From a virus, in the IMG/VR virus record IMGVR_UViG_3300025104_000001, positions 1-64,000 of that record: a stretch of 64,000 bases of DNA; one strand, given 5' to 3'. The notes under the pieces were generated by a model. That model searched no databases and had not been told where the DNA came from. It worked only from the letters and a program-made list of their open reading frames with translations. Within the stretch, counting starts at the first letter, position 1, and each line of letters opens with the position of its first letter. Below, one piece after another: positions 4,543 through 51,941 of this stretch. The position numbers and the translations under genes are program-made.

Positions 4543-5433
4543 ATGGGATTCGAGAAGTATCTACAAGAGGCTGAGATTGCAGCATCAAAACGCAAAGGCA
4601 TAATGCATCTAGAAAAAGCCAAGCCATCGGAGTTCTTAGAGCTCGCCCGTGACATTATGAAATCAGGCAACGGGCAAATGAAAGACGTGAAAATCAGCTT
4701 GAAGGTTGACGGTGCTGGTATTCGTTTCGGCAAAGACTCTCAAGGTCGATTCTTCTTTGAAACATCACGCTCTGGCCCTATTCAACAGAAGAAGGCATTT
4801 ACAGCGCACGCTTCACAAAAGGATGGCGTAGACCTAACCAGAGCCAACCATTATGATGATATGTATGACCACATCGAAGCTTCGAATCTCTGGAAAGATT
4901 TGCCTCCAGATACGAAGGTTGTGGCTGAAATATTGTATAATCCGATGGCAGAGATTCTACAGGATAAGATCAAGTTTGTTTCTGTCGCCTATGACAAGAG
5001 CAAGTTGGGTTCTCTAATGACCATCATCCCGCTTGATGTTGTTGTCTCATCCACGGGCAAGACGCATGATGACAAAGACAAGATCATCGAAGGTCTCTTG
5101 AAGAAATCGAATTCTGAAATCAAGGTCGAAAGTGCGAACCTACAAGGAACAACGCTTAATGTCGAAACAATCCTCAAGCCAATCTTTGCACTTGGTTCAG
5201 ACATTGATAGCGTTCTGGCTTCTCGTAAGGCTAGCGACAAAGCGAAGAAAGAACTCTATCAGATCGTGATTCAAAATGTCAAGGATCAATTGGCTAAATT
5301 CATCTTGAATCACCCTGAGATTGTAGGAAAGGATAAATTCGGCCCAGAGATTGAAGGTTTGGTTCTTGACTTGGGTAATAGACAATTCAAGGTGACGACT
5401 TCAGCATTTAAGGCATCGAAGCAAAAGGTATAA
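4543..5433 (+). CDS. ATP-dependent ligase / covalent nucleotidyltransferase-like protein (DUF6267-like)
   Basis: Motif I KVDG, motif IV EGLVL, motif V FKV; N-terminus MGFEKYLQE. Confidence 0.6.
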   Translation: MGFEKYLQEAEIAASKRKGIMHLEKAKPSEFLELARDIMKSGNGQMKDVKISLKVDGAGIRFGKDSQGRFFFETSRSGPIQQKKAFTAHASQKDGVDLTRANHYDDMYDHIEASNLWKDLPPDTKVVAEILYNPMAEILQDKIKFVSVAYDKSKLGSLMTIIPLDVVVSSTGKTHDDKDKIIEGLLKKSNSEIKVESANLQGTTLNVETILKPIFALGSDIDSVLASRKASDKAKKELYQIVIQNVKDQLAKFILNHPEIVGKDKFGPEIEGLVLDLGNRQFKVTTSAFKASKQKV

Positions 5434-5434
5434 C

Positions 5435-5944
5435 ATGAAAACATTTGTGACGTCCGACTCGCACTTCGGGCACCGAAATATCATTAAGTATTGTAATAGA
5501 CCGTTTAAATCAGTAGAGGAGATGGATTATGCCTTGGAGTCTATTTGGAATAGCTTGGTCGGCCCTGAAGACATTGTTTTTCATCTTGGTGATGTTACAC
5601 TTGCTGGTCCTGATAGGTGCGGCGATCTTCTTAATCGTCTGAACGGTAAAAAGATTCTGATTGCAGGGAATCATGACAGAAAATCAATTCAGAACCTCGG
5701 ATGTTGGAAGAAGGTTTGTGAGAACTTCAATTTCAACTACAAAGGCATAGATGTTCATATGCAACATGTGCCGTGGGTCAAGATGAACCCAGGGCATTTG
5801 TACTTGCACGGCCATTGCCACGGAACATTGGGTACGTGGAACAAAGGTCAAATTGACGTAGGTGTGGATTGTTGGGATTATGCGCCTGTTGAGTTGGAAG
5901 AGCTAATAGAATTCTGGAGAACAATGAAAAATGACAACGATTAA
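5435..5944 (+). CDS. Calcineurin-like metallophosphoesterase
   Basis: DSH, GD, GNHD, HGHCH motifs; DVGVD. Confidence 0.92.
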   Translation: MKTFVTSDSHFGHRNIIKYCNRPFKSVEEMDYALESIWNSLVGPEDIVFHLGDVTLAGPDRCGDLLNRLNGKKILIAGNHDRKSIQNLGCWKKVCENFNFNYKGIDVHMQHVPWVKMNPGHLYLHGHCHGTLGTWNKGQIDVGVDCWDYAPVELEELIEFWRTMKNDND

Positions 5945-22036: not shown

Positions 22037-22717
22037 TTAGTTCATGCCGTTTGCAATCGCCATGAATTCAGCGCGCACCGTCGGATTGCTCTTGAAGGCA
22101 CCGCTAATGTAACTAGTCACAGTTTCAGAGTTTTGATCCTCGACTCCACGACTAATGACACAATAGTGACGTGCTTTGATTGCAACTGCCACATCATCTG
22201 TTTCCAGAATGAATTTCAGAGTTTCCGCAATCTGTTGGGTCAGGCGTTCTTGAACCTGAGGACGGCGGCTGAAATATTCCACAATACGGTTCATCTTCGA
22301 TAGACCCAGAACCTTCTTGTCGGGAATGTATGCTACAGTTGCCAGACCGTCAATTTGCACAAGGTGATGCTCACAATCAGACATGACTCGGATGTTGCGT
22401 TCCACGACCATTTCATCATAGTGCATCTTGTTTTCGATTGTCGTACATTTCGGGAAGTTCTCTGGCTTGAGACCCCAAAACTTCTCGAGGACAAACATCT
22501 TAGCCACTCGCTTAGGAGTATCGACTAGACTGTCATCGGTCAAATCAAGACCGAGGAAAATCATAACATCTCGAATGAGAGGTTCGATGACTGAAATCTT
22601 GTCTTGTTCGGAAATTTGCAGTTTGTTTGTGGTAGGCGTATGAATACCCAATGAACGTAGATGATTCTCTACTGCTTGGCCCAGACTTGGGTCCGTCTTT
22701 GTTTTGTTAAATGCCAT
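22037..22717 (-). CDS. folE: GTP cyclohydrolase I
   Basis: TPKRVAKM, CEHH, GLSK-x-x-R, RPQVQERLT, H-x-C-x-x-x-RGV. Confidence 0.97.
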   Translation of the reverse strand: MAFNKTKTDPSLGQAVENHLRSLGIHTPTTNKLQISEQDKISVIEPLIRDVMIFLGLDLTDDSLVDTPKRVAKMFVLEKFWGLKPENFPKCTTIENKMHYDEMVVERNIRVMSDCEHHLVQIDGLATVAYIPDKKVLGLSKMNRIVEYFSRRPQVQERLTQQIAETLKFILETDDVAVAIKARHYCVISRGVEDQNSETVTSYISGAFKSNPTVRAEFMAIANGMN

Positions 22718-22772
22718 TTGTTCCCTTTCCTTAAACGAGAAACATTATTGTAACACAATTTACACGGACATG

Positions 22773-23303
22773 CTAGTGAAAAAAATCTATGAGGTATTTA
22801 GCTTGGGCGATTGAATCGTCTAGCGCATTGTGGTGAACGCCTTCATCACGCTCAATGTCCACACCGAAAACATTACACACTGTCCGTCCATCATAGACAT
22901 TGTAATATTTCCATGGCATCTTGCCAATCCCTAAAACCTTCATCATTGCTACCTGAGTGATAGGTACATCAAAATGAGGTCCCCTGGCCCATAGGGGTTC
23001 ATTGCGCTTCTTGGACAGATACTCGAAGAACATATTGAGGGCTTCTGCTGCAGGTTTTGCGGTTTTCTGAATACCTCTCAACGCCGCAGGGTTTTGCTCT
23101 CGCCATCATTGAAGTGTATCTTTGTCGTATGTCAAACCATGACGTAGAGAATCTTGTGCATCAATGGTCACATAGAATTCATCATAGATCCGCTTTTGGT
23201 CGATGTTGAAACGGCACGCGCCAATGCTCAAAATAGCACACCCCGGCTCTTTGCCCAAGGTTTCAATGTCAAACATCACGCCATTCAAATGACTAAAACT
23301 CAT
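22773..23303 (-). pseudogene. DEDDh 3'-5' exonuclease (DexA/Rv2179c-like) interrupted by an in-frame TGA
   Basis: DIETLG, SIGA, FD, D-x-RT, HNALDD motifs in one frame; reads DTLQ*WREQ where WW is expected. Confidence 0.85.
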
Positions 23304-23309
23304 AGAAAA

Positions 23310-23804
23310 TCAATCCTCGACAACATCGTTCCAACTATACCCATTGAAAACAAGCTCACGCCCGTTGATTGAATCAATGACGTTCTCAAGGTAATAGTCG
23401 TCCCAAGGCTTGCCTGTTTGAATTGTAACGTGGGGTGAATAGAATTCCCGGGAGTGTTTCGCCCCTAGTTTCTTAAGCCTTTCATGTTCCGCCTGTAAAT
23501 CGGCGCTTTCCAAGGTAATAACGAGAGAGTCTTCGTTCTTACCGTAGAGCTGGATGTCCTTCATTCTTGCTCTGAAGGTTTTTGTTTTCGGGTATGATTT
23601 TTCAGCGGGCGAGTCGTACTTGCTATACATCACAATGCAATGTAGATCATCATAATTGCATTCTGTTCCCAAGACATCAGCAACTGCCGTGATGATGTCT
23701 TTGGAACGTTTGTTTGGCACAACGCTCACATAAAGTCCAGATTTTCCCGTCCAACCATTACGAATCAGCTTTTCTACAATCTGCATTGACTTTTCCTCAA
23801 TCAT
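23310..23804 (-). CDS. 2H phosphodiesterase, Acb1/T4 gp57B-like (anti-CBASS candidate)
   Basis: GLYV, LHC(I)VMYS, GA-x-HS...Y-x-PHVT. Confidence 0.75.
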   Translation of the reverse strand: MIEEKSMQIVEKLIRNGWTGKSGLYVSVVPNKRSKDIITAVADVLGTECNYDDLHCIVMYSKYDSPAEKSYPKTKTFRARMKDIQLYGKNEDSLVITLESADLQAEHERLKKLGAKHSREFYSPHVTIQTGKPWDDYYLENVIDSINGRELVFNGYSWNDVVED

Positions 23805-24685
23805 GAGCCGATAACATTCCCAAATACGTATGTATGGTTTCTAGTTGCGACCATATAGCCACGCTTCATTGCCTCATTCGAGATTTTCGCAATGGTAGAA
23901 CCTTCTTGTTGTTCCTTCGTTGCACCAACAGGCATTACCCAGATGTGCCAATCACTAGGAATTATGGGGATAATCTGCTTCATATACATGTCTAACTCTT
24001 CCCAACATGCATCAGTGCCGTTCACCACAAACTTCAACCAACCCGAGGCTTCCTCAAAATAATCCTCCAAGAGCTTGACGTTCACTGCATTACGTTCGCC
24101 TGAAACGGAGAACAGCTTAGGCGACACGCTAAGATAGAGGTCTGCGGTTGTTGACATGCTATGGAAGTCTTTGAAAGGCTTTGTTCCATTCGTCTCGATT
24201 GTGATCTGAAGCGGAGACATGTCACGCTCCTTGAATTCATCACAAATCGCCTTCATCTGTTTTTGCCAGAGCATGGGTTCGCCGCCTGTAAAACATAGCT
24301 GAACTTTTTGATTGGTTACGGGATGCCTCCAAAAGCCGTTTTTATTATCGGCCTTGAGACCAAGGTTTGCTTCACCCAAAGCGATCAGTTTGTCCACAAG
24401 CTCTCTGACGGACTTCTTGTGAACAAGAGAATCAAACCTCTTAGACCACGAGTATGACGAATCACACCCATGCTCGAAAACAGGCAGTTCTTCAAGGGTC
24501 TTGTACTTGCTGATATCAATTGTCTTGTACGGAAGAACGTAGGTTGATTCGTCCATAGGATTCTTCTGACCGAACCCGTTGCATTCTAGGTTGCAGCCGA
24601 AGAACCGAACCCAGATTGTGGGCATGCCAGCGAAACCCGCTTCGCCTTGAAAAGATGTGAAGATTTCACTGTACTTGATATCCAT
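23801..24685 (-). CDS. queE: 7-carboxy-7-deazaguanine synthase (radical SAM)
   Basis: EIF-x-S-x-QGE, R-x-x-GCNLEC...GCDS, TGGEP, IETNGT, SVSPK. Confidence 0.92.
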   Translation of the reverse strand: MDIKYSEIFTSFQGEAGFAGMPTIWVRFFGCNLECNGFGQKNPMDESTYVLPYKTIDISKYKTLEELPVFEHGCDSSYSWSKRFDSLVHKKSVRELVDKLIALGEANLGLKADNKNGFWRHPVTNQKVQLCFTGGEPMLWQKQMKAICDEFKERDMSPLQITIETNGTKPFKDFHSMSTTADLYLSVSPKLFSVSGERNAVNVKLLEDYFEEASGWLKFVVNGTDACWEELDMYMKQIIPIIPSDWHIWVMPVGATKEQQEGSTIAKISNEAMKRGYMVATRNHTYVFGNVIGS

Positions 24686-24718
24686 GAAAGACTCCTTGAA
24701 AACTGCATTATAGCAGAC

Positions 24719-25327
24719 TTAAGCCATCAATGCAAGGTCAAATTTTTCTTTGAGAATGTCAGAACAAATCTTGACGCGTTCCTCAAAATCTGTTACTTCT
24801 TTCGGCATGACGAAGTACTTATCTTTCGGCAAATACCTGTCTGCGACGTTCAGGAACACCTCGTTCAGAGACTCTTGGATGTCTAGAGAGCAGCTACCCG
24901 CATCATCTTCAAAAGGAATCCCTGGCTGAATGATAAAGGTGAAGTCGATAGAATCGAAATGTTGACGAATCATGCCAAGGTGTGACTCAAAGGCACGAAA
25001 GTCTTCTCGTCCTGCCTTGAAGTCACCCAAGAGGTTGCTAAGGAAGAACTCTGAGTAACAGTAGACGTCAAACGCTGAACGGTCAAAAACAGAGTATTGT
25101 TCGCCTCGCATAATCTGCTGGGTCACATGGTTGCAAATCACGTTTTGCTGAACAATGCGCCAATAAAACCCATCCTTGCCTCGGAGACTTTCTGCTTCCT
25201 TGACAGAGCGTTTCTTAAAGGTCTTCTCGACCCTAGTATAATACATGATGAGATCATGGTCTACTGCAATACGCTCTGCAAGAGTAGTCTTGCCTGTACG
25301 ATGAGCGCCGCTGAAACAAATTTTCAT
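24719..25327 (-). CDS. P-loop nucleotide-kinase-like ATPase (AAA_28/NadR-like)
   Basis: G-x-HRTGKTT Walker A, DRS-x-x-D. Confidence 0.75.
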   Translation of the reverse strand: MKICFSGAHRTGKTTLAERIAVDHDLIMYYTRVEKTFKKRSVKEAESLRGKDGFYWRIVQQNVICNHVTQQIMRGEQYSVFDRSAFDVYCYSEFFLSNLLGDFKAGREDFRAFESHLGMIRQHFDSIDFTFIIQPGIPFEDDAGSCSLDIQESLNEVFLNVADRYLPKDKYFVMPKEVTDFEERVKICSDILKEKFDLALMA

Positions 25328-25360
25328 CGTTGTTTCTCCTTTATGCCACTTTCACCCAAG

Positions 25361-26055
25361 TCACTCACGAATAGCGGCCTCCTGCTGCTCCAGCCTCTTG
25401 AACTCGATCACCCATACCCAAGGGTTGGCGACCCAGCTTTCGGGGCCGTTGATCATCTCCCAGGCTTCTCGGAAGGCGTGCCAAGGTGCGTTGTGTCGCG
25501 TGTATCGCTCGGGCGCAAACCACCCAAACTCATCAAAAAACACGGCTTCACCGTCGCCGAAGGCGTGCCATTTGCCGTCCACTCGCCGCACACCCTCCGC
25601 TACAGCGTCCGCCTCGCTGATGTCCTGCAACCGCTCCACACGCACGCCGGTCACTTCGAGGGTGATGCGCGACAGTCTGCGAGGCATGTGGATGCTTGGC
25701 GACCAGCGCCCACCACTCGGATCGTCTGCATCGGCCCGATACACCGTCTTGGCGGGTCGGCAAGGAATGCTGACGCTCGCCTCCCAGCAGTAGTCGGCTG
25801 GCTCGTGGATGAACGCCTCCCTCACCCACAGCCTGTCTCCGGGCCGCCCGTAGGGGGCAGCGGTCTCCAGGACTTCAGGTAAGGGCTTCCGCTTGATAGG
25901 TCGATGAACCGCTGGGCCCACAACCCGTCTCCATCATCGAACCAACCGATGCAGTCTGCTGAATAGCGCTTCACAACCCGCCTCGTTTGGGTCTTGGCGC
26001 CCGCCAGAATCACCCGGACCATCGGCGCGCTGAAGAGGATGGGACGCTCTTTCAT
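25361..26055 (-). pseudogene. Temperate-phage ASCH-like protein ([13 protein letters not shown] family), frameshifted near 25860
   Basis: KTQTRRV in one frame; PYG[10 protein letters not shown], W-x-PSIHMPR...RITLE, VERLQDISE, NPWVWVIEF in another; GC-rich. Confidence 0.8.
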
Positions 26056-26297
26056 GCTTGCTCCTTCATCGCCAGGATGGCGGCGGAAATGTTGGTACCC
26101 GGACAACTGTCCGTGTACTGCCCCTCGAACTCGAACGCACACTCCTCAAGCGTGACGTTGCGGACGAGGGCAGCGAACTTCAAGAGTTCCTCCGGAGAAA
26201 TAACAAAATTGCCCTCGTCCCAGTCAGTTGGTGGGCTTGTGAATCCGTCATACCCGCCAGCTTTTCGCGCCATCTCGATGACATCGGTTATCGTCAT
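26052..26297 (-). CDS. Hypothetical temperate-phage-type protein
   Basis: IEMARKAG...L-x-x-FAALV...E-x-CA pattern; GAGGAG RBS; GC-rich. Confidence 0.7.
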
Positions 26298-26435
26298 GTC
26301 TTCTGCTCCTCAAGCACACAAAGTACGGCGCTCAGCGTGGAAACCACTTCACATCAAAGCGCAGCTCTAAAGCCCCACCACAGCCTCCACCACAGCCTCA
26401 ACGTCTACCTTGTTCATCATCAGATCTCCAGTGCG

Positions 26436-26510
26436 TTCGTCTTGAATCATGATCTAGGTTCTCCGTTCAACAATGAACGCATTATAAGGCAAGAATCATA
26501 CCATGTCTAG
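26436..26510 (-). repeat. Promoter/RBS/start cassette, copy 1 (TAGACA-N17-TATAAT)
   Basis: Near-identical to 48776-48850 on the opposite strand. Confidence 0.85.
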
Positions 26511-26554
26511 TATGTTTTTGAGAATTTTTACTCGAATATCAAAGTTTGACATGT

Positions 26555-27481
26555 CTACTCCTCACAAGACCCATTCTTCAACCCAGTGGTTGACTCTTGT
26601 TCTCCATTATAAACGTGACCCGGGATTAGCTGACGATGTTGAATCCAACCACGGAAGTTACCTGACCACAGTTGCATGTCTGCGGTCATATGAGTGACTC
26701 CCAACTCCTTCCAATGCTCTGGTTCATATGGGGAACAAGTCTTATCCATAGGCTTAGCTTGATGTTCAAAAGGAGAAGCATGAACAGGTTTTGTCTCCAC
26801 TAGACGACGATAGATGTCTTGTGCTTTTTCAAGACTTTTGTCTAGCTTACGATACGAAACCTGAGCGCAACACGATGAGGAGATAGCCAACGCTTCTTCT
26901 AGGCTATGATCTTGTGAATCAGTCCAATGACCTTGCATGTAATACGGGACATGCCAATCATTGTATCCGAGTTCAAATGGGTCTGAATTAGCTACAGCTT
27001 CTAGCATGGCTTCTGCAAGAGCCTTGATTTCAGGTTGTGCGTCTTTGTGAGCACGGAGATAGAAGAAGTTACCAATTTCGGTTGTCGTCATCACAACCTT
27101 GATGATTTGGAACGGTTCTAGGATACGATTGATGATTTGCTTATGTGCGCCTTCTTCATTCATTAAAGCGGCAATTCTGCAGGCCTCACCCCTTGCTTCA
27201 TCCCAAAGGGACTTTACTCGAGCAAGATTGGGTTCTTGAAGTTCCTCATTGGCTTGCATGCCTGGTTGGTTCTTGCCCCAATGAACCGGCTTTGCTGGAT
27301 TTGTTTGCACCAGCTCAATCATAGACTTGACGGGAATGGCTCGGCTTGATGCTGCGTTTCGTGAGAACATTCGGTGGGTAAGGAGCTCCGCGTGAATGAA
27401 ACGGGGATACTCCAACTCAAAGGTTGTAAGCCGAACACCTGCGGGTGAAATTGAATCTGCGATGATGTTTGCTTTAATCAT
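26555..27481 (-). CDS. thyX: Flavin-dependent thymidylate synthase
   Basis: ELLTHR-x-FSRNAASSRAIP, R-x-H-x-x-AQPEI, HASPFEH; AAGGAG RBS before the ATG at 27481. Confidence 0.9.
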   Translation of the reverse strand: MIKANIIADSISPAGVRLTTFELEYPRFIHAELLTHRMFSRNAASSRAIPVKSMIELVQTNPAKPVHWGKNQPGMQANEELQEPNLARVKSLWDEARGEACRIAALMNEEGAHKQIINRILEPFQIIKVVMTTTEIGNFFYLRAHKDAQPEIKALAEAMLEAVANSDPFELGYNDWHVPYYMQGHWTDSQDHSLEEALAISSSCCAQVSYRKLDKSLEKAQDIYRRLVETKPVHASPFEHQAKPMDKTCSPYEPEHWKELGVTHMTADMQLWSGNFRGWIQHRQLIPGHVYNGEQESTTGLKNGSCEE

Positions 27482-27500
27482 AAAACTCCTTGGTAACAAA

Positions 27501-27716: not shown

Positions 27717-29156
27717 TTATACCGTCAGCCCATCAATGTCATAACGAGGAGAGCTGATTGTCTTCAGCATCACGCTTTCTGGCGTGATTTCCTCTGCCTT
27801 AAGAACGCTTTGCATGATTGCAGGGCTGAACCCAGTAATCATAGTTGTTCCGTTCTCATCAGACTTAACTTGGATGTTTTGACTACGAGCGTTCACGTTC
27901 CAGAAGATGATGTTAGGACGAACATAACCCGCCCTTTCAAACTTCTCATTGATAGCTTGGTAGTTTGTTACCATCTTCTTCCTACCAGAGCAATCTTCCG
28001 AACTCGTAGCGGCGTTGAATTCCATATCTGAGATGATGATGATGTACTCAGGCATGTCGCTTTGAGGTACATTGTTCTCTACAGCAGAGTTCAACAGCAA
28101 ATCAAATGCTGCTTGAATATCAGTAGAACCTCCCCAAGGCAATTTACGAACATAATCCACTTTTTCCTTGATGGTCTTCTGATCGATGTTTGCCCACTTC
28201 GGAGCAGTCTCAAACGTCATCGCCAAGTTCTTGAAGTGACCTTCTTGACGTTCAGCCAAGTAGATACCCAAGGAGATTGCAACGTCCATGCATGACACTT
28301 TACCAAAACCACCTGCAGGACAGTTCATAGAACCAGAAACGTCAATCATAGGAAGCATCTTGGATGCACCATCCAGATAGTCTGGCAGTTCCTTCCATTG
28401 TGCGTCTGCAACTTCAGCATCGCCGAATTGTGCAGTTCGAATAACATCATAAGGGTACAACGCCGAGGCTTTGGCTTTCACCTTGCCGTTTGCAAGAGCT
28501 TCCTTGTATGCAGAGAACCTCTCTTTAGCGTTACGGGCAAAAGCGTTTGTATAGCGAGCCATTGCAACAGAAGGCACTTGGGAGAAATTGATTTCATCCC
28601 ATTGTTTAGCGCACATCTTAGTCTCAACAGTGTTGGAAGTTTCAACCAACAGCTTACGATATGCTTTAGGGCTCAACTTCATCAAACCACGGATGATGGC
28701 AGCTTCTTTACCTTTGCGAGGCAACCACTTTGCAATCAACCCTGCATTGACAGATTTGGTTTCCATAGCAACCTTAAGTTGTTCAGCCAAGTGGAAACGG
28801 ATTTGGGTTGGGATTGCATCATGACACAACAGAGGAACCAAATCGTCAAAACGACCTAGCTCGGGGATCTTACCGCTCAACATGATTGAAGCGACTGCGC
28901 GCTTATCGTTCTTAGCCAACCAATCCATGATTGTACGGAATACCAAACGTTCGCCTGGGCCGCCACGAGCGTCACGCGCCCATAGCAAGATACGTAGCGC
29001 AGTGACAGGGTCCTCGGCATATGCCAGAATGAACTTCTCTAGTGCGTCGTTAGGATTGTTTCGTGCAGAACCGATAACAGCGAACAAGTCAACGTTACGG
29101 TTTAGGGAAGTTGCCAGAGTCTTTGCTCCATTGGCAGTGAAAGCCACGTTTGACAT
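27717..29156 (-). CDS. DUF2828 / TROVE(Ro60)-like protein with vWA domain
   Basis: T-x-NGA, RD-x-RGG-x-GER, AKWLPR, VPS-x-AM, DVSGSM MIDAS, ISDMEF, FWNV, GFSP. Confidence 0.85.
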   Translation of the reverse strand: MSNVAFTANGAKTLATSLNRNVDLFAVIGSARNNPNDALEKFILAYAEDPVTALRILLWARDARGGPGERLVFRTIMDWLAKNDKRAVASIMLSGKIPELGRFDDLVPLLCHDAIPTQIRFHLAEQLKVAMETKSVNAGLIAKWLPRKGKEAAIIRGLMKLSPKAYRKLLVETSNTVETKMCAKQWDEINFSQVPSVAMARYTNAFARNAKERFSAYKEALANGKVKAKASALYPYDVIRTAQFGDAEVADAQWKELPDYLDGASKMLPMIDVSGSMNCPAGGFGKVSCMDVAISLGIYLAERQEGHFKNLAMTFETAPKWANIDQKTIKEKVDYVRKLPWGGSTDIQAAFDLLLNSAVENNVPQSDMPEYIIIISDMEFNAATSSEDCSGRKKMVTNYQAINEKFERAGYVRPNIIFWNVNARSQNIQVKSDENGTTMITGFSPAIMQSVLKAEEITPESVMLKTISSPRYDIDGLTV

Positions 29157-29167
29157 AATAATCTCCG

Positions 29168-29212
29168 CAGGTTGTTTATGATTTCAAGAGATGAATTGCT
29201 GAAAGCAACCTT
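29168..29212 (-). ncRNA. Putative structured ncRNA motif copy 1 (AAGGnnnnTTWCAGCA...nnnnCCTG)
   Basis: AGGTTG/CAACCT closing stem plus TTTCAGCAA; immediately upstream of the DUF2828 gene. Confidence 0.55.
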
Positions 29213-29217
29213 TTATA

Positions 29218-29338
29218 CAGGAACGCTGTGCACTAAGCACTCATGAGGGCTCACGCTCTAACCCAAAAGCATACAAAGGCATGCTAGATCTAAGTTTTAA
29301 TATGTCGGGTTCTTGATCTGCTTGCTGAAACGTTCCTT
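29218..29338 (-). ncRNA. Putative structured ncRNA motif copy 2
   Basis: AGGAACG/CGTTCCT closing stem plus TTTCAGCAA; internal hairpins. Confidence 0.55.
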
Positions 29339-29341
29339 ATT

Positions 29342-29380
29342 GCGTGAAAAATACACGATCTTTAACCGGGTATTAGTTCA
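29342..29380 (+). mobile_element. Isolated degenerate IS200/IS605-type end hairpin
   Basis: GCGTGAAAAATACACGATCTTTA matches the reverse complement of ~27627-27649 with one mismatch; ends in TAGTTCA. Confidence 0.5.
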
Positions 29381-29387
29381 TTATATA

Positions 29388-29816
29388 TCAATCTTGTGCC
29401 TTATAAAAAGAATTTTTTTGTTGATTAACACCTGCTTCAAAAGCAGCTTCCAGCCACTTTACCATCATTCTAGTGGCAGCTTGAAAGTCCTTTGCTCCGT
29501 CAAACATGTAGATCAGAATGTCATCATAGAAACGCTCTGACCTAAATCCGAATCCTTCAATTTCGTGAAACCACCTGAAGAAATCAGTCCCAGAGGCTTC
29601 GGTAATATTTTCCGAACAGGGTCGTTCCACGTCGAATGCGTTCTTCATGCTTACGAATTCCTTCATAGTCGCACTTGTATGTATGGTTAGGGCCGCGTTC
29701 CATTTTGAACAGCTTGGGCTTGCCGTTCTCGTTCCATTCACAGGGCTCCCACTTAATGTCAAACTCACCAGAGCGATAATGTTCTTCCCAGTCGTTGTCT
29801 GGGTGAAGTTGCTCAA
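29388..29816 (-). CDS. Hypothetical protein; true start uncertain, probably only the C-terminal ~65 aa are real
   Basis: F-x-x-WF-x-EIEGFG-x-RSER...WLEAAF looks protein-like; the 5' part overlaps the 29584 gene. Confidence 0.4.
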   Translation of the reverse strand: MSNFTQTTTGKNIIALVSLTLSGSPVNGTRTASPSCSKWNAALTIHTSATMKEFVSMKNAFDVERPCSENITEASGTDFFRWFHEIEGFGFRSERFYDDILIYMFDGAKDFQAATRMMVKWLEAAFEAGVNQQKNSFYKAQD

Positions 29817-32599: not shown

Positions 32600-33096
32600 C
32601 ACACATTGATTACTAGTTCTTTTTCAAGTTTCATCTCATGGGGAAAACTGCTCCAAGTGCAGGAGCACTATATAATTTAACATTCACCGATTTACCGTAC
32701 TCTACCCAATCCACTGATAGATGGGTAATTCCTTCTTTTACCATGTTGAACCTAAAGTATAACCTTTATATTTTATCCACCTAGATGGGGTAACCCCATC
32801 TAGTCCTCGTTCTTTTGCTAATTTACTCTGTCGTATTTTAAATTCTTCTGTGTAGGGATGCCCTTTTATTGATTTACCCTTATTTGGGTTAATTGGAATA
32901 TCAATACCTAATTCTCTTGCTTTAATGTATTGATTACTTTTTTAGCACCGGGTGGGTGCTTGTTTACACTGTTATGGAAAGATTCCTTTTCAAAATTTGA
33001 AATTCTTCTATTCGGATTTTGTTTACAATATCTCTCATGATTTATTTTTGAATTATTATTCTTACATTCTTTGTTGCAAAAATTACATATTAGCAT
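32600..33096 (-). pseudogene. Degenerate homing-endonuclease-like gene (N-terminal zinc finger)
   Basis: MLICNFCNKECKN...HERYC-x-x-NPN; very AT-rich; broken frame; adjacent to the tRNA cluster. Confidence 0.55.
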
Positions 33097-33121
33097 TTTA
33101 TTATTCTTATAATTACATTTT

Positions 33122-33158
33122 GTAAATTCGTTGCCGTAGACCACTTGGCTAATCCAGC
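33122..33158 (-). pseudogene. tRNA 5' half (no T-arm or 3' acceptor strand)
   Basis: GCTGGATTAGCCAAGTGGTCTACGGCAACG acceptor strand plus D-arm. Confidence 0.6.
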
Positions 33159-33170
33159 ACAATATGCCAT

Positions 33171-33202
33171 AGGCGGCTGCTCTACCAACTGAGTTAAAAG
33201 AA
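33171..33202 (-). pseudogene. tRNA 5' half
   Basis: TTCTTTTAACTCAGTTGGTAGAGCAGCCGCCT D-arm, truncated at the anticodon arm. Confidence 0.6.
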
Positions 33203-33209
33203 TGAATTT

Positions 33210-33284
33210 TGGTGGAGCTGCGGGGAATCGAACCCCGAACTGCGCCTTGCAAGGGCGCTGTGTTCCCAATTATACCACAACCCC
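33210..33284 (-). tRNA. tRNA-Ala(TGC)
   Basis: Full cloverleaf, G3:U70, GCGCC-CTTGCAA-GGCGC, TTCGATT, ACCA. Confidence 0.92.
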
Positions 33285-33320
33285 AAAAATCTACATTGTT
33301 TTGTATATATTCAAAACGTT

Positions 33321-33396
33321 TGGGATGACCCACGGGATTTGAACCCATACTGCCAAGGTCACAACATAGAGTTCTAATCATTACACTAAAGTCACC
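33321..33396 (-). tRNA. tRNA-His(GTG), partly degenerate
   Basis: G-1 and CCCA end, GTG anticodon, TTCAAAT; mismatched anticodon stem, D-loop GA instead of GG. Confidence 0.7.
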
Positions 33397-33407
33397 ACTA
33401 AGCGTTT

Positions 33408-33484
33408 TGGAACGGTTAGTCAGATTCGAACTGACACTTCGGATTTGGAAGACCCGCGTGCTAGCCGTTAAACACTATAACCGC
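33408..33484 (-). tRNA. tRNA-Gly(TCC)
   Basis: GCGGTTA/TAACCGT acceptor, CGGGT-CTTCCAA-ATCCG, U73, CCA. Confidence 0.92.
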
Positions 33485-33495
33485 ATTGAATATAA

Positions 33496-33579
33496 CAGGA
33501 TGGCTCCTACTTTTTGATTAAAGAGAGAAATCGAAACTCTCAACCAGTATATCTTAAAATAACTGCTGTAACCATCCTT
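33496..33579 (-). ncRNA. Putative structured ncRNA motif copy 3 with a T-arm-like hairpin
   Basis: AGGATGG/CCATCCT stem plus TTACAGCAG; internal GAGAG-TTTCGATTT-CTCTC. Confidence 0.55.
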
Positions 33580-33588
33580 AAATTTTTG

Positions 33589-33659
33589 TCTCCGAAGAAG
33601 GAATCGAACCTTCGCCTCATGGCCCCAAACCACGCACGCTACCATTACACCACTCGGAG
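33589..33659 (-). tRNA. tRNA-Pro(TGG)
   Basis: CTCCGAG/TTCGGAG acceptor, CGTGG-TTTGGGG-CCATG, TTCGATT; CAA instead of CCA. Confidence 0.85.
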
Positions 33660-33750
33660 TGATTTCCATTTTTCTACGGTGACCGCTACCAACTCGCTAC
33701 TGAGTTGTATCACAGTTAGTTGGATCACTGCATATGATACTTTTAATCAG

Positions 33751-33843
33751 TGGTGCGGTAGGTTGGATTCGAACCAACAGTGTTTACCACGAGGGACCGG
33801 ATTTACAGTCCGGGGATGCACACGCCATAGCATCAACTACCGC
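33751..33843 (-). tRNA. tRNA-Tyr(GTA)
   Basis: CCGGA-CTGTAAA-TCCGG, long variable arm, TTCGAAT, ACCA; atypical 5-bp D-stem. Confidence 0.85.
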
Positions 33844-33854
33844 ATCTTTGTCGT

Positions 33855-33922
33855 CACCATTTCAAAACACAATATCGGTCCGGGATTCTAACCCATTTCT
33901 AATTTTGTGTTTTGAAATGGTG
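33855..33922. repeat. Perfect 18-bp inverted repeat enclosing a T-arm-like remnant
   Basis: CACCATTTCAAAACACAA (33855-33872) / TTGTGTTTTGAAATGGTG (33905-33922). Confidence 0.9.
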
Positions 33923-34002
33923 CCCCTAGCAGGGTTCGAACCTGCACTCCTTTCGGAAGCGGATTTTGAGTCCGCCGAGTCTACCAGTTCCTCCATAGGG
34001 GC
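33918..34002 (-). tRNA. tRNA-Leu(CAA)
   Basis: GCCCCTA/TAGGGGC, GCGGA-CTCAAAA-TCCGC, variable stem TCCGAAAGGA, ACCA. Confidence 0.95.
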
Positions 34003-51038: not shown

Positions 51039-51941
51039 ATGATGCGAGCAATTGTGACCGTGGGGGTTTCGGCCTCGGGTAAGTCGACTTGGGCGTCGGA
51101 CTTTATCAAAGCTGAGGCCTCCAAGGGCGTTATTTGGCAGCGCATTGAACGAGATTGTATCCGCAGGGGTATCTTGATTGAAAAGGGTATCGCTGCGGAA
51201 CTGGAATGGGACAAATGGAATTGGAAATGGGAAAAGGAAGTGAGTGAGCGCGCAGACAAAATACTGGAAGCCGCTGCTCAATCACGCGCCAACGTTATTA
51301 TCTCTGACACCAACCTGAACAAAGAACGACGGAAGAGTCTGATTCAGAAGCTCAAGGAATTTGGCTACACCGTAGACGTTCGACCCTTTCCTATCTCGTT
51401 TGAGGAAGCTGTTAAACGTGACGCCAAGCGCAAGAACGGTGTGGGCGTTTCTGTTCTGGCATCTCAGTTTGAGCAATGGAACAAGCAATTCGTCACTCAG
51501 TATGAAGGCACTAAGGGTGCTCCCAAGGCCATCATCGTTGATATTGACGGCACGTTGGCACAAATGAATCGTGACCGTGGCCCGTTTGAATGGGACAAGG
51601 TTGAACAAGACAAGCTGGATGAAGAAGTGGCAGCAATCGTCAAAGCTCTGGAAAGCTCTGGAGAATGGAAGATTGTTGTTCTGTCGGGTCGCGATGGCGT
51701 CTGCCGTCCTCAAATCGAACGGTGGCTGGCACGGCACGAAATTCGGTACAGCGACTTCTTCATGCGTGCTGAAGGCGATATGCGTAAGGATTCGGTCATC
51801 AAATCAGAAATCTTCTGGTGTGATGTTGCTCCGAAATATGACGTTAAAATGGTCATTGATGGCCGTCCTCAGGTCACCCGTATGTGGCGCAGCATTGGTC
51901 TGAAAGTGCTTCAGGTGGGTAACCCTTACATTGAATTTTGA
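51039..51941 (+). CDS. pseT: Polynucleotide 5'-kinase/3'-phosphatase
   Basis: G-x-x-ASGKST, RD, DTNL; DIDGTLA, SGR, MR-x-x-x-D-x-RKD-x-x-x-K. Confidence 0.93.
   Translation: MMRAIVTVGVSASGKSTWASDFIKAEASKGVIWQRIERDCIRRGILIEKGIAAELEWDKWNWKWEKEVSERADKILEAAAQSRANVIISDTNLNKERRKSLIQKLKEFGYTVDVRPFPISFEEAVKRDAKRKNGVGVSVLASQFEQWNKQFVTQYEGTKGAPKAIIVDIDGTLAQMNRDRGPFEWDKVEQDKLDEEVAAIVKALESSGEWKIVVLSGRDGVCRPQIERWLARHEIRYSDFFMRAEGDMRKDSVIKSEIFWCDVAPKYDVKMVIDGRPQVTRMWRSIGLKVLQVGNPYIEF

What the first reader, a model, noticed from the sequence alone, without database searches (positions are those of the whole stretch)
29168..29338. Covarying ncRNA motif in tandem upstream of a Ro/TROVE-like (DUF2828) gene: candidate phage Y-RNA-like partners
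Seen on the minus strand: three elements share AAGG-nnnn-TTWCAGCAR...nnnn-CCTG, and the n bases covary to keep a terminal helix (TTG/CAA, AACG/CGTT, ATGG/CCAT) around interiors of different length. Two copies sit directly upstream of the DUF2828 gene; the third is in the tRNA cluster. Established: Ro60/Rsr proteins bind Y RNAs via a terminal stem, and bacterial Y RNA genes lie next to rsr. Inference: a DUF2828-ncRNA ribonucleoprotein for RNA quality control or repair (PseT is also encoded), or an autoregulatory leader bound by the protein.
Basis: partly seen in the sequence, partly recalled or inferred. Interest (0 to 1): 0.85.

Follow-up and report, generated by a model that had tools for sequence, protein, structure and literature searches.

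The report
Phage Ro60-like protein's partner RNAs
Three small structured RNA genes in this phage share a conserved "handle" and belong to a widespread RNA family, absent from Rfam, that travels with a Ro60-shaped protein gene in very different phages and probably forms a Y-RNA-like particle with it.

Summary
Three minus-strand elements share one design: a covarying 9-bp closing helix, then UUWCAGCAR, a variable interior, and a 3' CCUG. E1 is 29337-29218, E2 is 29211-29168 and E3 is 33578-33496. E1 and E2 follow a sigma70-like promoter and run into the Shine-Dalgarno of a DUF2828/DUF7788 gene. E3 lies between tRNA-Pro and tRNA-Gly.

Covariance models built here find the same module beside DUF2828 genes in nearly every locus examined. 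All hits at E<=0.1 lie on the gene's strand, mostly within 1 kb upstream. A hand-written descriptor gave 532 upstream hits in 247 loci, against 2 after shuffling. Five phage genomes without the gene had no hit. The protein model folds like Ro60 (Foldseek top hits all Ro60/TROVE).

No Rfam family reaches threshold. The only resemblance is sub-threshold, to Dictyostelium Class I RNAs.

Best reading (about 0.75): these are Y-RNA-like ligands of a Ro60-like protein. Binding and expression are untested here.

This scan has reported the same system on other DNA many times. I found no paper that defines the RNA family, although two papers guess at Y RNAs next to homologous genes.

The parts
29380..29407 (-). 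Sigma70-like promoter (TTTATA-16-TATAAT) about 40 nt upstream of E1
   Evidence: Consensus scan, 10 of 12 matches. Relatives L177 and L194 have TTGACA-17-TATAAT at the same place. Promoter function is inferred.
29218..29337 (-). E1: 120-nt handle RNA (AGGAACGUU-UCAGCAA ... AGCGUUCCU-G) whose interior holds several hairpins
   Evidence: Pattern match, descriptor, MFE helix and R2 at 18.1 bits in full register with filters off. Orthologues in L177, L194 and L178 keep the helix and two inner hairpins with compensatory changes.
29168..29211 (-). E2: 44-nt handle RNA (AGGUUGCUU-UCAGCAA ... AAACAACCU-G), ending 1 nt before the Shine-Dalgarno
   Evidence: R1 39.8 bits and R2 28.1 bits. RF01414 gives 16.2 bits in full register. 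Orthologues show compensatory helix changes.
29163..29166 (-). Shine-Dalgarno GGAG of the DUF2828 gene
   Evidence: Read from the sequence: CCUG-C-GGAG-AUUAUU-AUG.
27717..29156 (-). Gene for a 479-aa DUF2828/DUF7788 protein with a predicted Ro60-like fold (helical ring plus vWA domain with an intact MIDAS motif)
   Evidence: Pfam DUF7788 9.3e-46 and DUF2828 7.7e-29. PHROG 850 'RNA-binding protein' 3.5e-145. AF2 pLDDT 87, pTM 0.87. The top 11 Foldseek hits are all Ro60/TROVE. D272, S274, S276, T345 and D377 are invariant.
33496..33578 (-). E3: 83-nt handle RNA (AGGAUGGUU-ACAGCAG ... AGCCAUCCU-G) with a T-arm-like hairpin, between tRNA-Pro and tRNA-Gly
   Evidence: R2 36.8 bits, E 7e-6 in the whole genome. 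MFE helix plus a GAGAG-UUUCGAUUU-CUCUC hairpin. Flanking tRNAs are at 33588-33659 and 33408-33484.
33210..34002 (-). Cluster of six tRNA genes that hosts E3
   Evidence: ARAGORN and Rfam.
51039..51941 (+). Context only: PseT-type polynucleotide kinase/phosphatase
   Evidence: Pfam HAD_PNKP 2e-44 and AAA_33 7e-18. PHROG 505 6.4e-88.

Best explanation
E1, E2 and E3 are genes for small non-coding RNAs of one family. Each has a conserved 'handle': a 7-9 bp closing helix whose sequence is free but whose pairing is kept, a single-stranded UUWCAGCAR directly 3' of the 5' strand, and a 3' CCUG. The handle encloses a variable 'cargo'. The handle is most likely the binding site for the Ro60-like DUF2828/DUF7788 protein encoded directly downstream, so RNA and protein would form a Y-RNA-like ribonucleoprotein.

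E1 and E2 would be transcribed with the protein gene from the promoter at 29407-29380 and cut out of the leader. E3 would be released when the flanking tRNAs are processed. The cargo is a T-arm-like hairpin in E3 and structured hairpins in E1. In other phages it can be a whole tRNA-like body. It would give the particle its specificity, either by recruiting tRNA- or RNA-handling enzymes or by acting as a decoy. The likely purpose is RNA surveillance or repair, or counter-defence during infection.

Shown here: the RNA family, its covariation, its linkage to the gene, and the protein's predicted fold. Inferred: binding, processing and purpose.
For: Helix covariation:
- In 11 short copies from three phages, 93.9% of cells are paired and 7 of 9 pairs show double changes. 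Slid controls reach at most 48.5%.
- In 45 diverse copies, 92.3% are paired and 8 of 9 pairs are compensatory.

Linkage to the gene:
- R2 gave 220 hits (E<=0.1) in 1.03 Mb of the window and 83 viral loci, all on the gene's strand and nearly all within 600 nt upstream.
- It gave 109 hits in 80 loci from bacterial and archaeal assemblies, all on the gene's strand.
- Further clades also carry it: Listeria, mycobacterial, Campylobacter and Vibrio phages.
- In whole phage records the hits cluster at the gene or in the tRNA cluster.
- A model-free descriptor gave 532 upstream same-strand hits in 247 loci (223 loci positive), against 2 after shuffling.
- T4, T5, phiKZ, SPO1 and N4 have neither the gene nor the RNA.

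Protein:
- The model is confident and its best structural matches are Thermus phage Ro60, vertebrate Ro60 and Deinococcus Rsr, with E 1.6e-9 to 1e-6 and TM mostly 0.5-0.57 (0.34 for Rsr) over the full length.

Topology:
- In other loci the handle replaces the anticodon arm of tRNA-like genes, or encloses a permuted tRNA body. This is the YrlA idea.

Literature:
- Canonical Ro60 genes have Y RNA genes next to them on the same strand (PMC4201824; PMC12135203).
- In Listeria phage CKA15, three unannotated regions within 2 kb upstream of an Rsr-like gene (CKA15_055) are among the most highly transcribed. That gene is presumably the counterpart of the WIL-1 DUF2828 gene, but I did not verify this (PMC12282133).
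- Bas63 gp130 is Ro60-like and lies directly upstream of the tRNA genes. It counters the Ppl defence system (PMC11482910).
Against: There are no expression, processing or binding data for this phage. The scores of the window's own copies are moderate: 36.8, 28.1 and 18.1 bits.

The protein has no Pfam TROVE match, and its vWA_Ro60 match is below cut-off. The similarity to Ro60 is at fold level only, with rmsd about 8 A.

The handle is unlike the bulged Ro-binding helix of Y RNAs, and YrlA (RF02553) does not match the elements.

The last copy regularly abuts the ribosome-binding site, so part of the signal could be cis-regulation. I did not verify that Bas63 gp130 is the DUF2828 orthologue.
Confidence: 0.75

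Rival explanations
1. The elements are only cis-acting leader structures of the DUF2828 mRNA. The protein, or a ribonuclease, would bind them to control its own translation or mRNA stability, and no free small RNA would be made.
For: E2 ends 1 nt before the Shine-Dalgarno. In many loci the last copy likewise abuts the ribosome-binding site. E1 and E2 lie between a promoter-like site and the gene.
Against: E3 lies 4.3 kb upstream, inside a tRNA cluster. In FelixO1-like, Cronobacter and mycobacterial phages the copies lie downstream of the gene. Arrays reach 7-9 copies. Some copies are built into tRNA-like genes. The region upstream of the Listeria phage Rsr-like gene is very highly transcribed.
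Confidence: 0.1
2. The elements are processing or punctuation signals of phage tRNA and early operons, such as ribonuclease entry sites or attenuators. They would sit near DUF2828 only because both lie in the same genome module.
For: The elements are often interleaved with tRNA genes. One interior hairpin of E1 scores as terminator-like.
Against: The tRNA-rich phages T4 and T5 have no copy. Phages with few or no nearby tRNAs still carry copies next to the gene, namely mycobacteriophage Kahlid and Campylobacter F356. A strictly conserved single-stranded ACAGCAA plus a helix free in sequence fits a protein-recognition site better than a nuclease site. Linkage holds across unrelated phage families.
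Confidence: 0.07
3. The elements are decayed tRNA genes or small mobile repeats with no function of their own.
For: Interiors often contain tRNA pieces such as T-arm-like hairpins.
Against: The non-tRNA handle is the conserved part, while the tRNA-like parts vary. Compensatory changes maintain the helix within and between genomes. There are no target-site duplications or terminal repeats. Copies within one genome differ in helix sequence.
Confidence: 0.03

Closest known systems
Ro60/Rsr with Y RNAs: bacterial and mycobacteriophage YrlA (Rfam RF02553; Chen et al. 2014, PMC4201824) and Thermus phage phiLo Ro60 with Yrl1/Yrl2 (PMC12135203)
   Same: A ring-plus-vWA protein by predicted fold. Small RNA genes lie next to it on the same strand, often upstream. 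A closing helix is joined to a variable module that can mimic tRNA. Several RNAs accompany one protein.
   Different: The protein belongs to other sequence families (DUF2828/DUF7788; no TROVE Pfam match). The RNA has a different conserved element: ACAGCAA after a helix of free sequence, instead of the bulged helix and the GNCGAA/CGAA motifs. RF02553 does not match. Arrays can be much larger.
Class I RNAs of dictyostelid social amoebae (Rfam RF01414; Kjellin et al. 2021, PMC7919456)
   Same: A short covarying helix joins the 5' and 3' ends. A conserved, unstructured motif (CCUUACAGCAA in Dictyostelium, UUWCAGCAR here) follows directly after the 5' strand. The interior is variable and the 3' end is CUG. 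Sizes are about 42-65 nt (E2 is 44 nt). Genes occur in clusters. RF01414 aligns E2 and seven elements of other phages end to end.
   Different: All scores are below Rfam's gathering threshold: 16-30 bits against 41.5. The Dictyostelium genes are eukaryotic nuclear genes with their own promoter element, and their known direct binder is an RRM protein. I could not establish whether dictyostelids have a DUF2828 protein.
Bas63 gp130 (PhageMaP preprint, PMC11482910) and Listeria phage CKA15_055 (PMC12282133)
   Same: Both are phage proteins described as Ro60/Rsr-like, placed next to tRNA genes or unannotated highly transcribed regions. In both papers the authors guess that Y RNAs are involved.
   Different: Neither paper defines the RNA family or its handle. 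I did not verify that these two proteins are DUF2828 orthologues. This is likely from their position and from the related FelixO1-like and P100-like loci I examined.

Membership tests
Ro60/TROVE protein family | Sequence match to the TROVE domain (Pfam) or to solved Ro60 proteins | tested here: not met
   There is no TROVE hit, and vWA_Ro60 scores only 16.8 bits against a cut-off of 27.7. phmmer against the PDB found nothing. A profile gave only weak hits to TROVE/Ro60 chains (E 0.08-0.3), confined to the MIDAS region.
Ro60/TROVE protein family | Helical-repeat ring followed by a vWA domain with a MIDAS motif | tested here: met
   AF2 model with pLDDT 87 and pTM 0.87. The top 11 Foldseek hits are all Ro60/TROVE/Rsr, covering the full length with TM mostly 0.5-0.57. 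DxSxS, T and D are invariant in 43 homologues. This rests on a predicted structure only.
Ro60/TROVE protein family | Binds Y RNA through a conserved helix | not testable with these tools
   This needs EMSA, RIP or co-purification.
YrlA-type bacterial Y RNA (RF02553) | Match to the covariance model | tested here: not met
   No RF02553 hit overlaps E1, E2 or E3, even at E<=10.
YrlA-type bacterial Y RNA (RF02553) | Encoded within a few kb of the Ro-like gene on the same strand | tested here: met
   E1 and E2 lie 12-181 nt upstream and E3 4.3 kb upstream, all on the minus strand like the gene. The same holds family-wide.
YrlA-type bacterial Y RNA (RF02553) | tRNA-like domain (T arm, D arm, closed acceptor) | tested here: inconclusive
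   E3 has only a T-arm-like hairpin, and E1 and E2 have none. Full permuted tRNA bodies occur in other phages' copies, for example L003 5353-5479.
Dictyostelium Class I RNA (RF01414) | Score at or above Rfam's gathering threshold (41.5 bits) | tested here: not met
   E2 scores 16.2 bits. Seven elements of other phages score 23.4-29.6 bits.
Dictyostelium Class I RNA (RF01414) | Short covarying terminal stem plus the conserved motif next to its 5' strand, with a variable remainder | tested here: met
   The motif positions reported as most conserved in dictyostelids (T3, C6, C9, A10, A11) are the conserved ones here too.
Dictyostelium Class I RNA (RF01414) | Upstream DUSE promoter element and eukaryotic nuclear expression | tested here: not met
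   This is a phage genome, and a sigma70-like promoter precedes E1.
Phage 'handle' RNA family defined here (models R1, R2) | Match to the model in full register, on the strand of a DUF2828 gene | tested here: met
   E3 36.8 bits and E2 28.1 bits in the whole genome. E1 18.1 bits with filters off. E2 was in the R1 seed; E1 and E3 were not.

The most novel reading that the evidence does not exclude
The phage handle RNAs and the Class I RNAs of Dictyostelium would be one ancient RNA family, and DUF2828 proteins would be its conserved partner across phages, bacteria, giant viruses and eukaryotes. Eukaryotic DUF2828 proteins exist in plants, dinoflagellates, Naegleria, a fungus and a mite.

A concrete test exists. 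The pull-down with Class I RNA DdR-21 recovered a protein of unknown function, DDB_G0281243, which is conserved in all dictyostelids (bioRxiv 10.1101/2020.04.05.026054). If that protein, or any dictyostelid protein, is a DUF2828/DUF7788 member that binds the handle, the function of Class I RNAs becomes approachable. I could not reach its sequence.
Probability: 0.15. Interest if true: 0.92.

Novelty: new variant of a known kind. Interest (0 to 1): 0.78.

Why it matters
Ro60 with its Y RNAs is a classic RNA-surveillance particle, and its bacterial and phage roles are only now being worked out. This work points to a second, much more widespread phage version. It is built from a different protein family and a different RNA handle, and it is present in well-studied model phages: FelixO1-like, P100-like Listeria phages, KVP40-like phages, Campylobacter phages and mycobacteriophages.

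It explains 'spacer repeats', odd long 'tRNAs' and clusters of tiny annotated ORFs next to these genes. It gives covariance models for annotating them. It also ties in with two experimental hints: very high transcription upstream of the Listeria phage gene, and a counter-defence phenotype of the Ro60-like gene of Bas63.

If the resemblance to Dictyostelium Class I RNAs reflects common descent, it would also give a protein partner to an RNA class that has been unexplained since 2004.

Tried and rejected
- **Rfam.** Only tRNAs pass at gathering thresholds. At E<=10 the only relevant match is sub-threshold RF01414, and there is no YrlA match at the elements.
- **Megablast.** The locus has no match in the phage collection.
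- **First descriptor.** My strict descriptor required an AG start and missed most loci. The helix start varies between clades (AGG, AGA, GGGAC, GUGAC), so I replaced it with covariance models and a looser descriptor.
- **A fourth candidate.** The hit at 34350-34220 lies inside a coding ORF and neither model finds it, so I rejected it.
- **Permuted handles.** I found no convincing permuted (tRNA-embedded) handle in this genome.
- **Whole bacterial genomes.** Searching them with R2 was too insensitive to use as a co-occurrence test, because only 150 of more than 800 candidates were scored.
- **The look-up of encoding contigs.** Close relatives came from the metagenome scan instead.
- **Dictyostelium DUF2828.** Searches for 'DUF2828' and 'UCP015417' found no relevant paper. 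The proteome supplements of PMC7919456 are truncated and lack DDB_G0281243. The protein atlas was uninformative. Profile searches gave eukaryotic homologues, but no dictyostelid among those whose names I could see. This does not show absence.
- **Bas63.** My accession guess returned another phage.

Full report
**Observation**

On the minus strand the window holds three elements with one design. E1 is 29337-29218 (120 nt), E2 is 29211-29168 (44 nt) and E3 is 33578-33496 (83 nt).

Each element starts with A-G-G, followed by four bases that differ between copies, then UUWCAGCAR. Each ends with the complement of those bases followed by CCU-G. With AGG/CCU and the frequent pairing of UU with AR, the closing helix has 9 bp. 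Thermodynamic folding recovers it in all three.

E1 begins about 40 nt after a promoter-like site, TTTATA-16-TATAAT. E2 follows after 6 nt and ends one base before the GGAG of the 479-codon gene at 29156-27717. E3 fills the gap between tRNA-Pro and tRNA-Gly in a six-tRNA cluster. The genome held for this window is a single 90.8-kb viral contig.

**The same module elsewhere**

tblastn found the protein in 711 phage records from many host groups. Reading two of them showed the module at once.
- Aeromonas phage LAh_9 has seven tandem copies running into the gene's ribosome-binding site.
- A FelixO1-like phage has four copies in the tRNA cluster just downstream of the gene.

In both, each copy has a different helix sequence but the same (U)UACAGCAA and 3' CUG.

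An alignment of 11 short copies gave 93.9% paired cells and compensatory changes at 7 of 9 pairs. Partners slid by 1-3 columns gave at most 48.5%. A second alignment of 45 diverse copies gave 92.3% paired and 8 of 9 compensatory pairs. That alignment was fitted to the model, so it leans towards the structure.

**Linkage to the gene**

Model R2 was run over the window plus 83 viral loci (1.03 Mb, both strands). It gave 220 hits at E<=0.1, every one on the gene's strand and nearly all within 600 nt upstream of the start codon.

In whole phage records the hits cluster at the gene or in the nearby tRNA cluster. In this genome only E3 and E2 are found. E1 scores 18.1 bits, in full register, once the speed filters are turned off. 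Its long interior costs it score.

Eighty independent loci from bacterial and archaeal assemblies gave 109 hits, again all on the gene's strand. Listeria, mycobacterial, Campylobacter and Vibrio phages also carry the module next to the gene.

A descriptor that uses no model asks only for a 7-9 bp helix, the CAGCA core, and a G after the 3' strand. In 247 loci it found 532 same-strand hits within 1.5 kb upstream, in 223 loci, against 2 after local shuffling. It found 59 hits on the opposite strand over 2.5 Mb.

T4, T5, phiKZ, SPO1 and N4 (774 kb in total) have neither PF11443 nor any R2 hit at E<=1.

**Close relatives**

Metagenome contigs whose protein is 56-78% identical keep the same order: promoter (TTGACA-17-TATAAT), E1, E2, Shine-Dalgarno, gene.
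- The E1 helix is AGGAACG/CGTTCCT in three genomes and AGGAACA/TGTTCCT in the fourth.
- The E2 helix has a C.A mismatch here. It is a clean A-U pair in L194, and the helix is GGGUUGG/CCAACCC in L178.
- Two inner hairpins of E1 also covary, while the length of E1 ranges from 120 to about 210 nt.

**The protein**

Pfam places it in DUF2828 plus DUF7788 and gives no TROVE match. Sequence searches against solved structures give only weak hits to Ro60/TROVE chains, around the MIDAS motif.

The AlphaFold model is confident, with pLDDT 87 and pTM 0.87. Its 11 best Foldseek matches are all Ro60-type proteins: Thermus phage phiLo Ro60, human and Xenopus Ro60, and Deinococcus Rsr. They align over the full length with E 1.6e-9 to 1e-6 and TM mostly 0.5-0.57. 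The MIDAS residues are invariant in 43 homologues.

It therefore works like, and is probably a distant relative of, Ro60. By sequence criteria it is not a member of the TROVE family.

**Variant topologies**

In several other loci the handle sits inside tRNA-like genes. The acceptor stem, D arm and T arm are intact, but the anticodon arm is replaced by ...CAUG-loop-GUG...-YUACAGCAA. Here the two ends of the handle are joined by a small loop, and Rfam's tRNA model reports 115-127-nt 'tRNAs'.

In the FelixO1-like phage one handle encloses a permuted tRNA body. This parallels YrlA, where the Ro-binding stem takes the place of the anticodon stem (PMC4201824). In this window only E3 carries a tRNA-like piece, a T-arm-like hairpin. 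I found no permuted copy here.

**What is known**

Rfam 15 has no family for these RNAs. The only relevant match is to Dictyostelium Class I RNA (RF01414). It aligns E2 and seven elements of other phages end to end, at 16-30 bits against a threshold of 41.5.

Class I RNAs are described as 42-65 nt. A 6-bp covarying stem joins their ends, and an unstructured 11-nt motif CCUUACAGCAA follows the 5' strand. They were reported as unique to dictyostelids (PMC7919456). The resemblance is real, but it may be convergence.

'DUF2828' occurs in only five papers of the library, none relevant. Two papers come close.
- In Listeria phage CKA15 the Rsr-like protein CKA15_055 was found in virions. Three unannotated regions within 2 kb upstream are very highly transcribed, and the authors suggest Y RNAs (PMC12282133). 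In the related phage WIL-1, R2 hits lie in such a region, which is annotated there as tiny ORFs.
- In the FelixO1-like phage Bas63, gp130 is Ro60-like by structure, lies directly upstream of the tRNA genes and counters the Ppl defence system. The authors suggest that some 'tRNAs' are Y RNAs (PMC11482910).

I did not verify the orthology of these two proteins with the DUF2828 gene.

**Earlier notes of this scan**

The scan's notebook shows the same DUF2828-plus-ACAGCAA system reported on other DNA in more than 260 genomes, several times with the Class I resemblance. I read those notes only after reaching the same reading myself, and I re-tested the main claims here. One later check there rated the bold Dictyostelium reading at 6 in 100.

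**The Dictyostelium lead**

The preprint version of the Class I paper names the proteins pulled down with Class I RNA DdR-21: GuaB, NdkC, the RRM protein CIBP/Rnp1A, and DDB_G0281243. The last has unknown function and orthologues in all dictyostelids.

Whether DDB_G0281243 is a DUF2828 protein would decide much, but I could not reach its sequence. Eukaryotic DUF2828 proteins do exist, in dinoflagellates, plants, a fungus, Naegleria and a mite. No dictyostelid appeared among the ten composition-picked hits whose names I looked up or the named hits. This is weak evidence either way.

**Mechanism**

The most likely reading is that the handle is the protein's binding site and the interiors are exchangeable cargo. 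I hold it at about 0.75. Co-transcription with the gene (E1, E2) or with the tRNAs (E3) would supply the RNAs. The last copy next to the ribosome-binding site may also allow feedback on translation.

The phage also encodes a PseT-type kinase/phosphatase and a 2H phosphoesterase of the Acb1/LigT type. Related phages place RtcB and RNA ligase genes beside the DUF2828 gene. These fit a role in RNA repair, surveillance or counter-defence. The purpose remains inference.

**Limits**

All evidence is computational. E-values from my models are rough. The loci were found through the protein, so the survey cannot see handles that occur far from any DUF2828 gene, apart from what the whole records and the five negative controls show.

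Noticed in passing
window 33855-33922 (-): The spacer between tRNA-Leu and tRNA-Tyr folds into a near-perfect long hairpin (about 19 bp outer stem) capped by a T-arm-like GGGUUAGAAUCCC hairpin. MFE is -32.2 kcal/mol, z = -6.3, and 0 of 200 shuffles fold as well. It has no ACAGCAA handle. It may be another small RNA or a processing signal.
   Followed up: partly
window 32900-33205 (-): Directly after tRNA-Ala there is a tRNA-like 5' fragment (D-arm AGCUCAGUUGGUAGAGC) that ARAGORN does not call. It is followed by a short Cys-rich ORF that looks like the start of a homing-endonuclease-type gene. This may be a disrupted or intron-bearing tRNA.
   Followed up: no
window 22037-27499 (-): The genes downstream of the DUF2828 gene are ThyX-like thymidylate synthase, a P-loop kinase, a QueE-like radical SAM protein, an Acb1/2H-phosphoesterase-like protein (PF23474, 3.4e-15) and GTP cyclohydrolase I. 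This looks like a 7-deazaguanine modification and nucleotide module with a possible anti-CBASS enzyme.
   Followed up: partly
L008, L078, L009, L064 (about 5400-5830); L002 346-462; L012 4895-5016 and 5195-5321: These are tRNA-like genes of 115-127 nt in which the anticodon arm is replaced by a loop-closed handle (…CAUG-N3-GUG…-YUACAGCAA). Rfam's tRNA model scores them 45-54 bits, so annotation pipelines may call them tRNAs.
   Followed up: partly
L167 (Listeria phage WIL-1) 1229-5911: The region upstream of the DUF2828 gene is annotated as some 25 tiny ORFs of 22-45 codons on both strands. R2 hits lie at 5614-5882 and 2074-2175. The ORFs are probably mis-annotations of an RNA region. RtcB, an RNA ligase and a tRNA amidotransferase follow the gene.
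   Followed up: partly
L001 (Cronobacter phage S13) 4875-5268: The annotated 'tRNA-Ser' of 121 nt and 'tRNA-OTHER' of 113 nt just downstream of the DUF2828 gene lie next to or over handle elements (descriptor hits 4926-5045 and 5133-5268). They may be handle RNAs rather than tRNAs.
   Followed up: no
P0124, P0133, P0144, P0152 (eukaryote-like or long DUF2828 proteins): Some long homologues carry extra domains: U-box (PF04564) or KH (PF07650, PF00013). The KH domains would fit an RNA-related role in eukaryotes.
   Followed up: no
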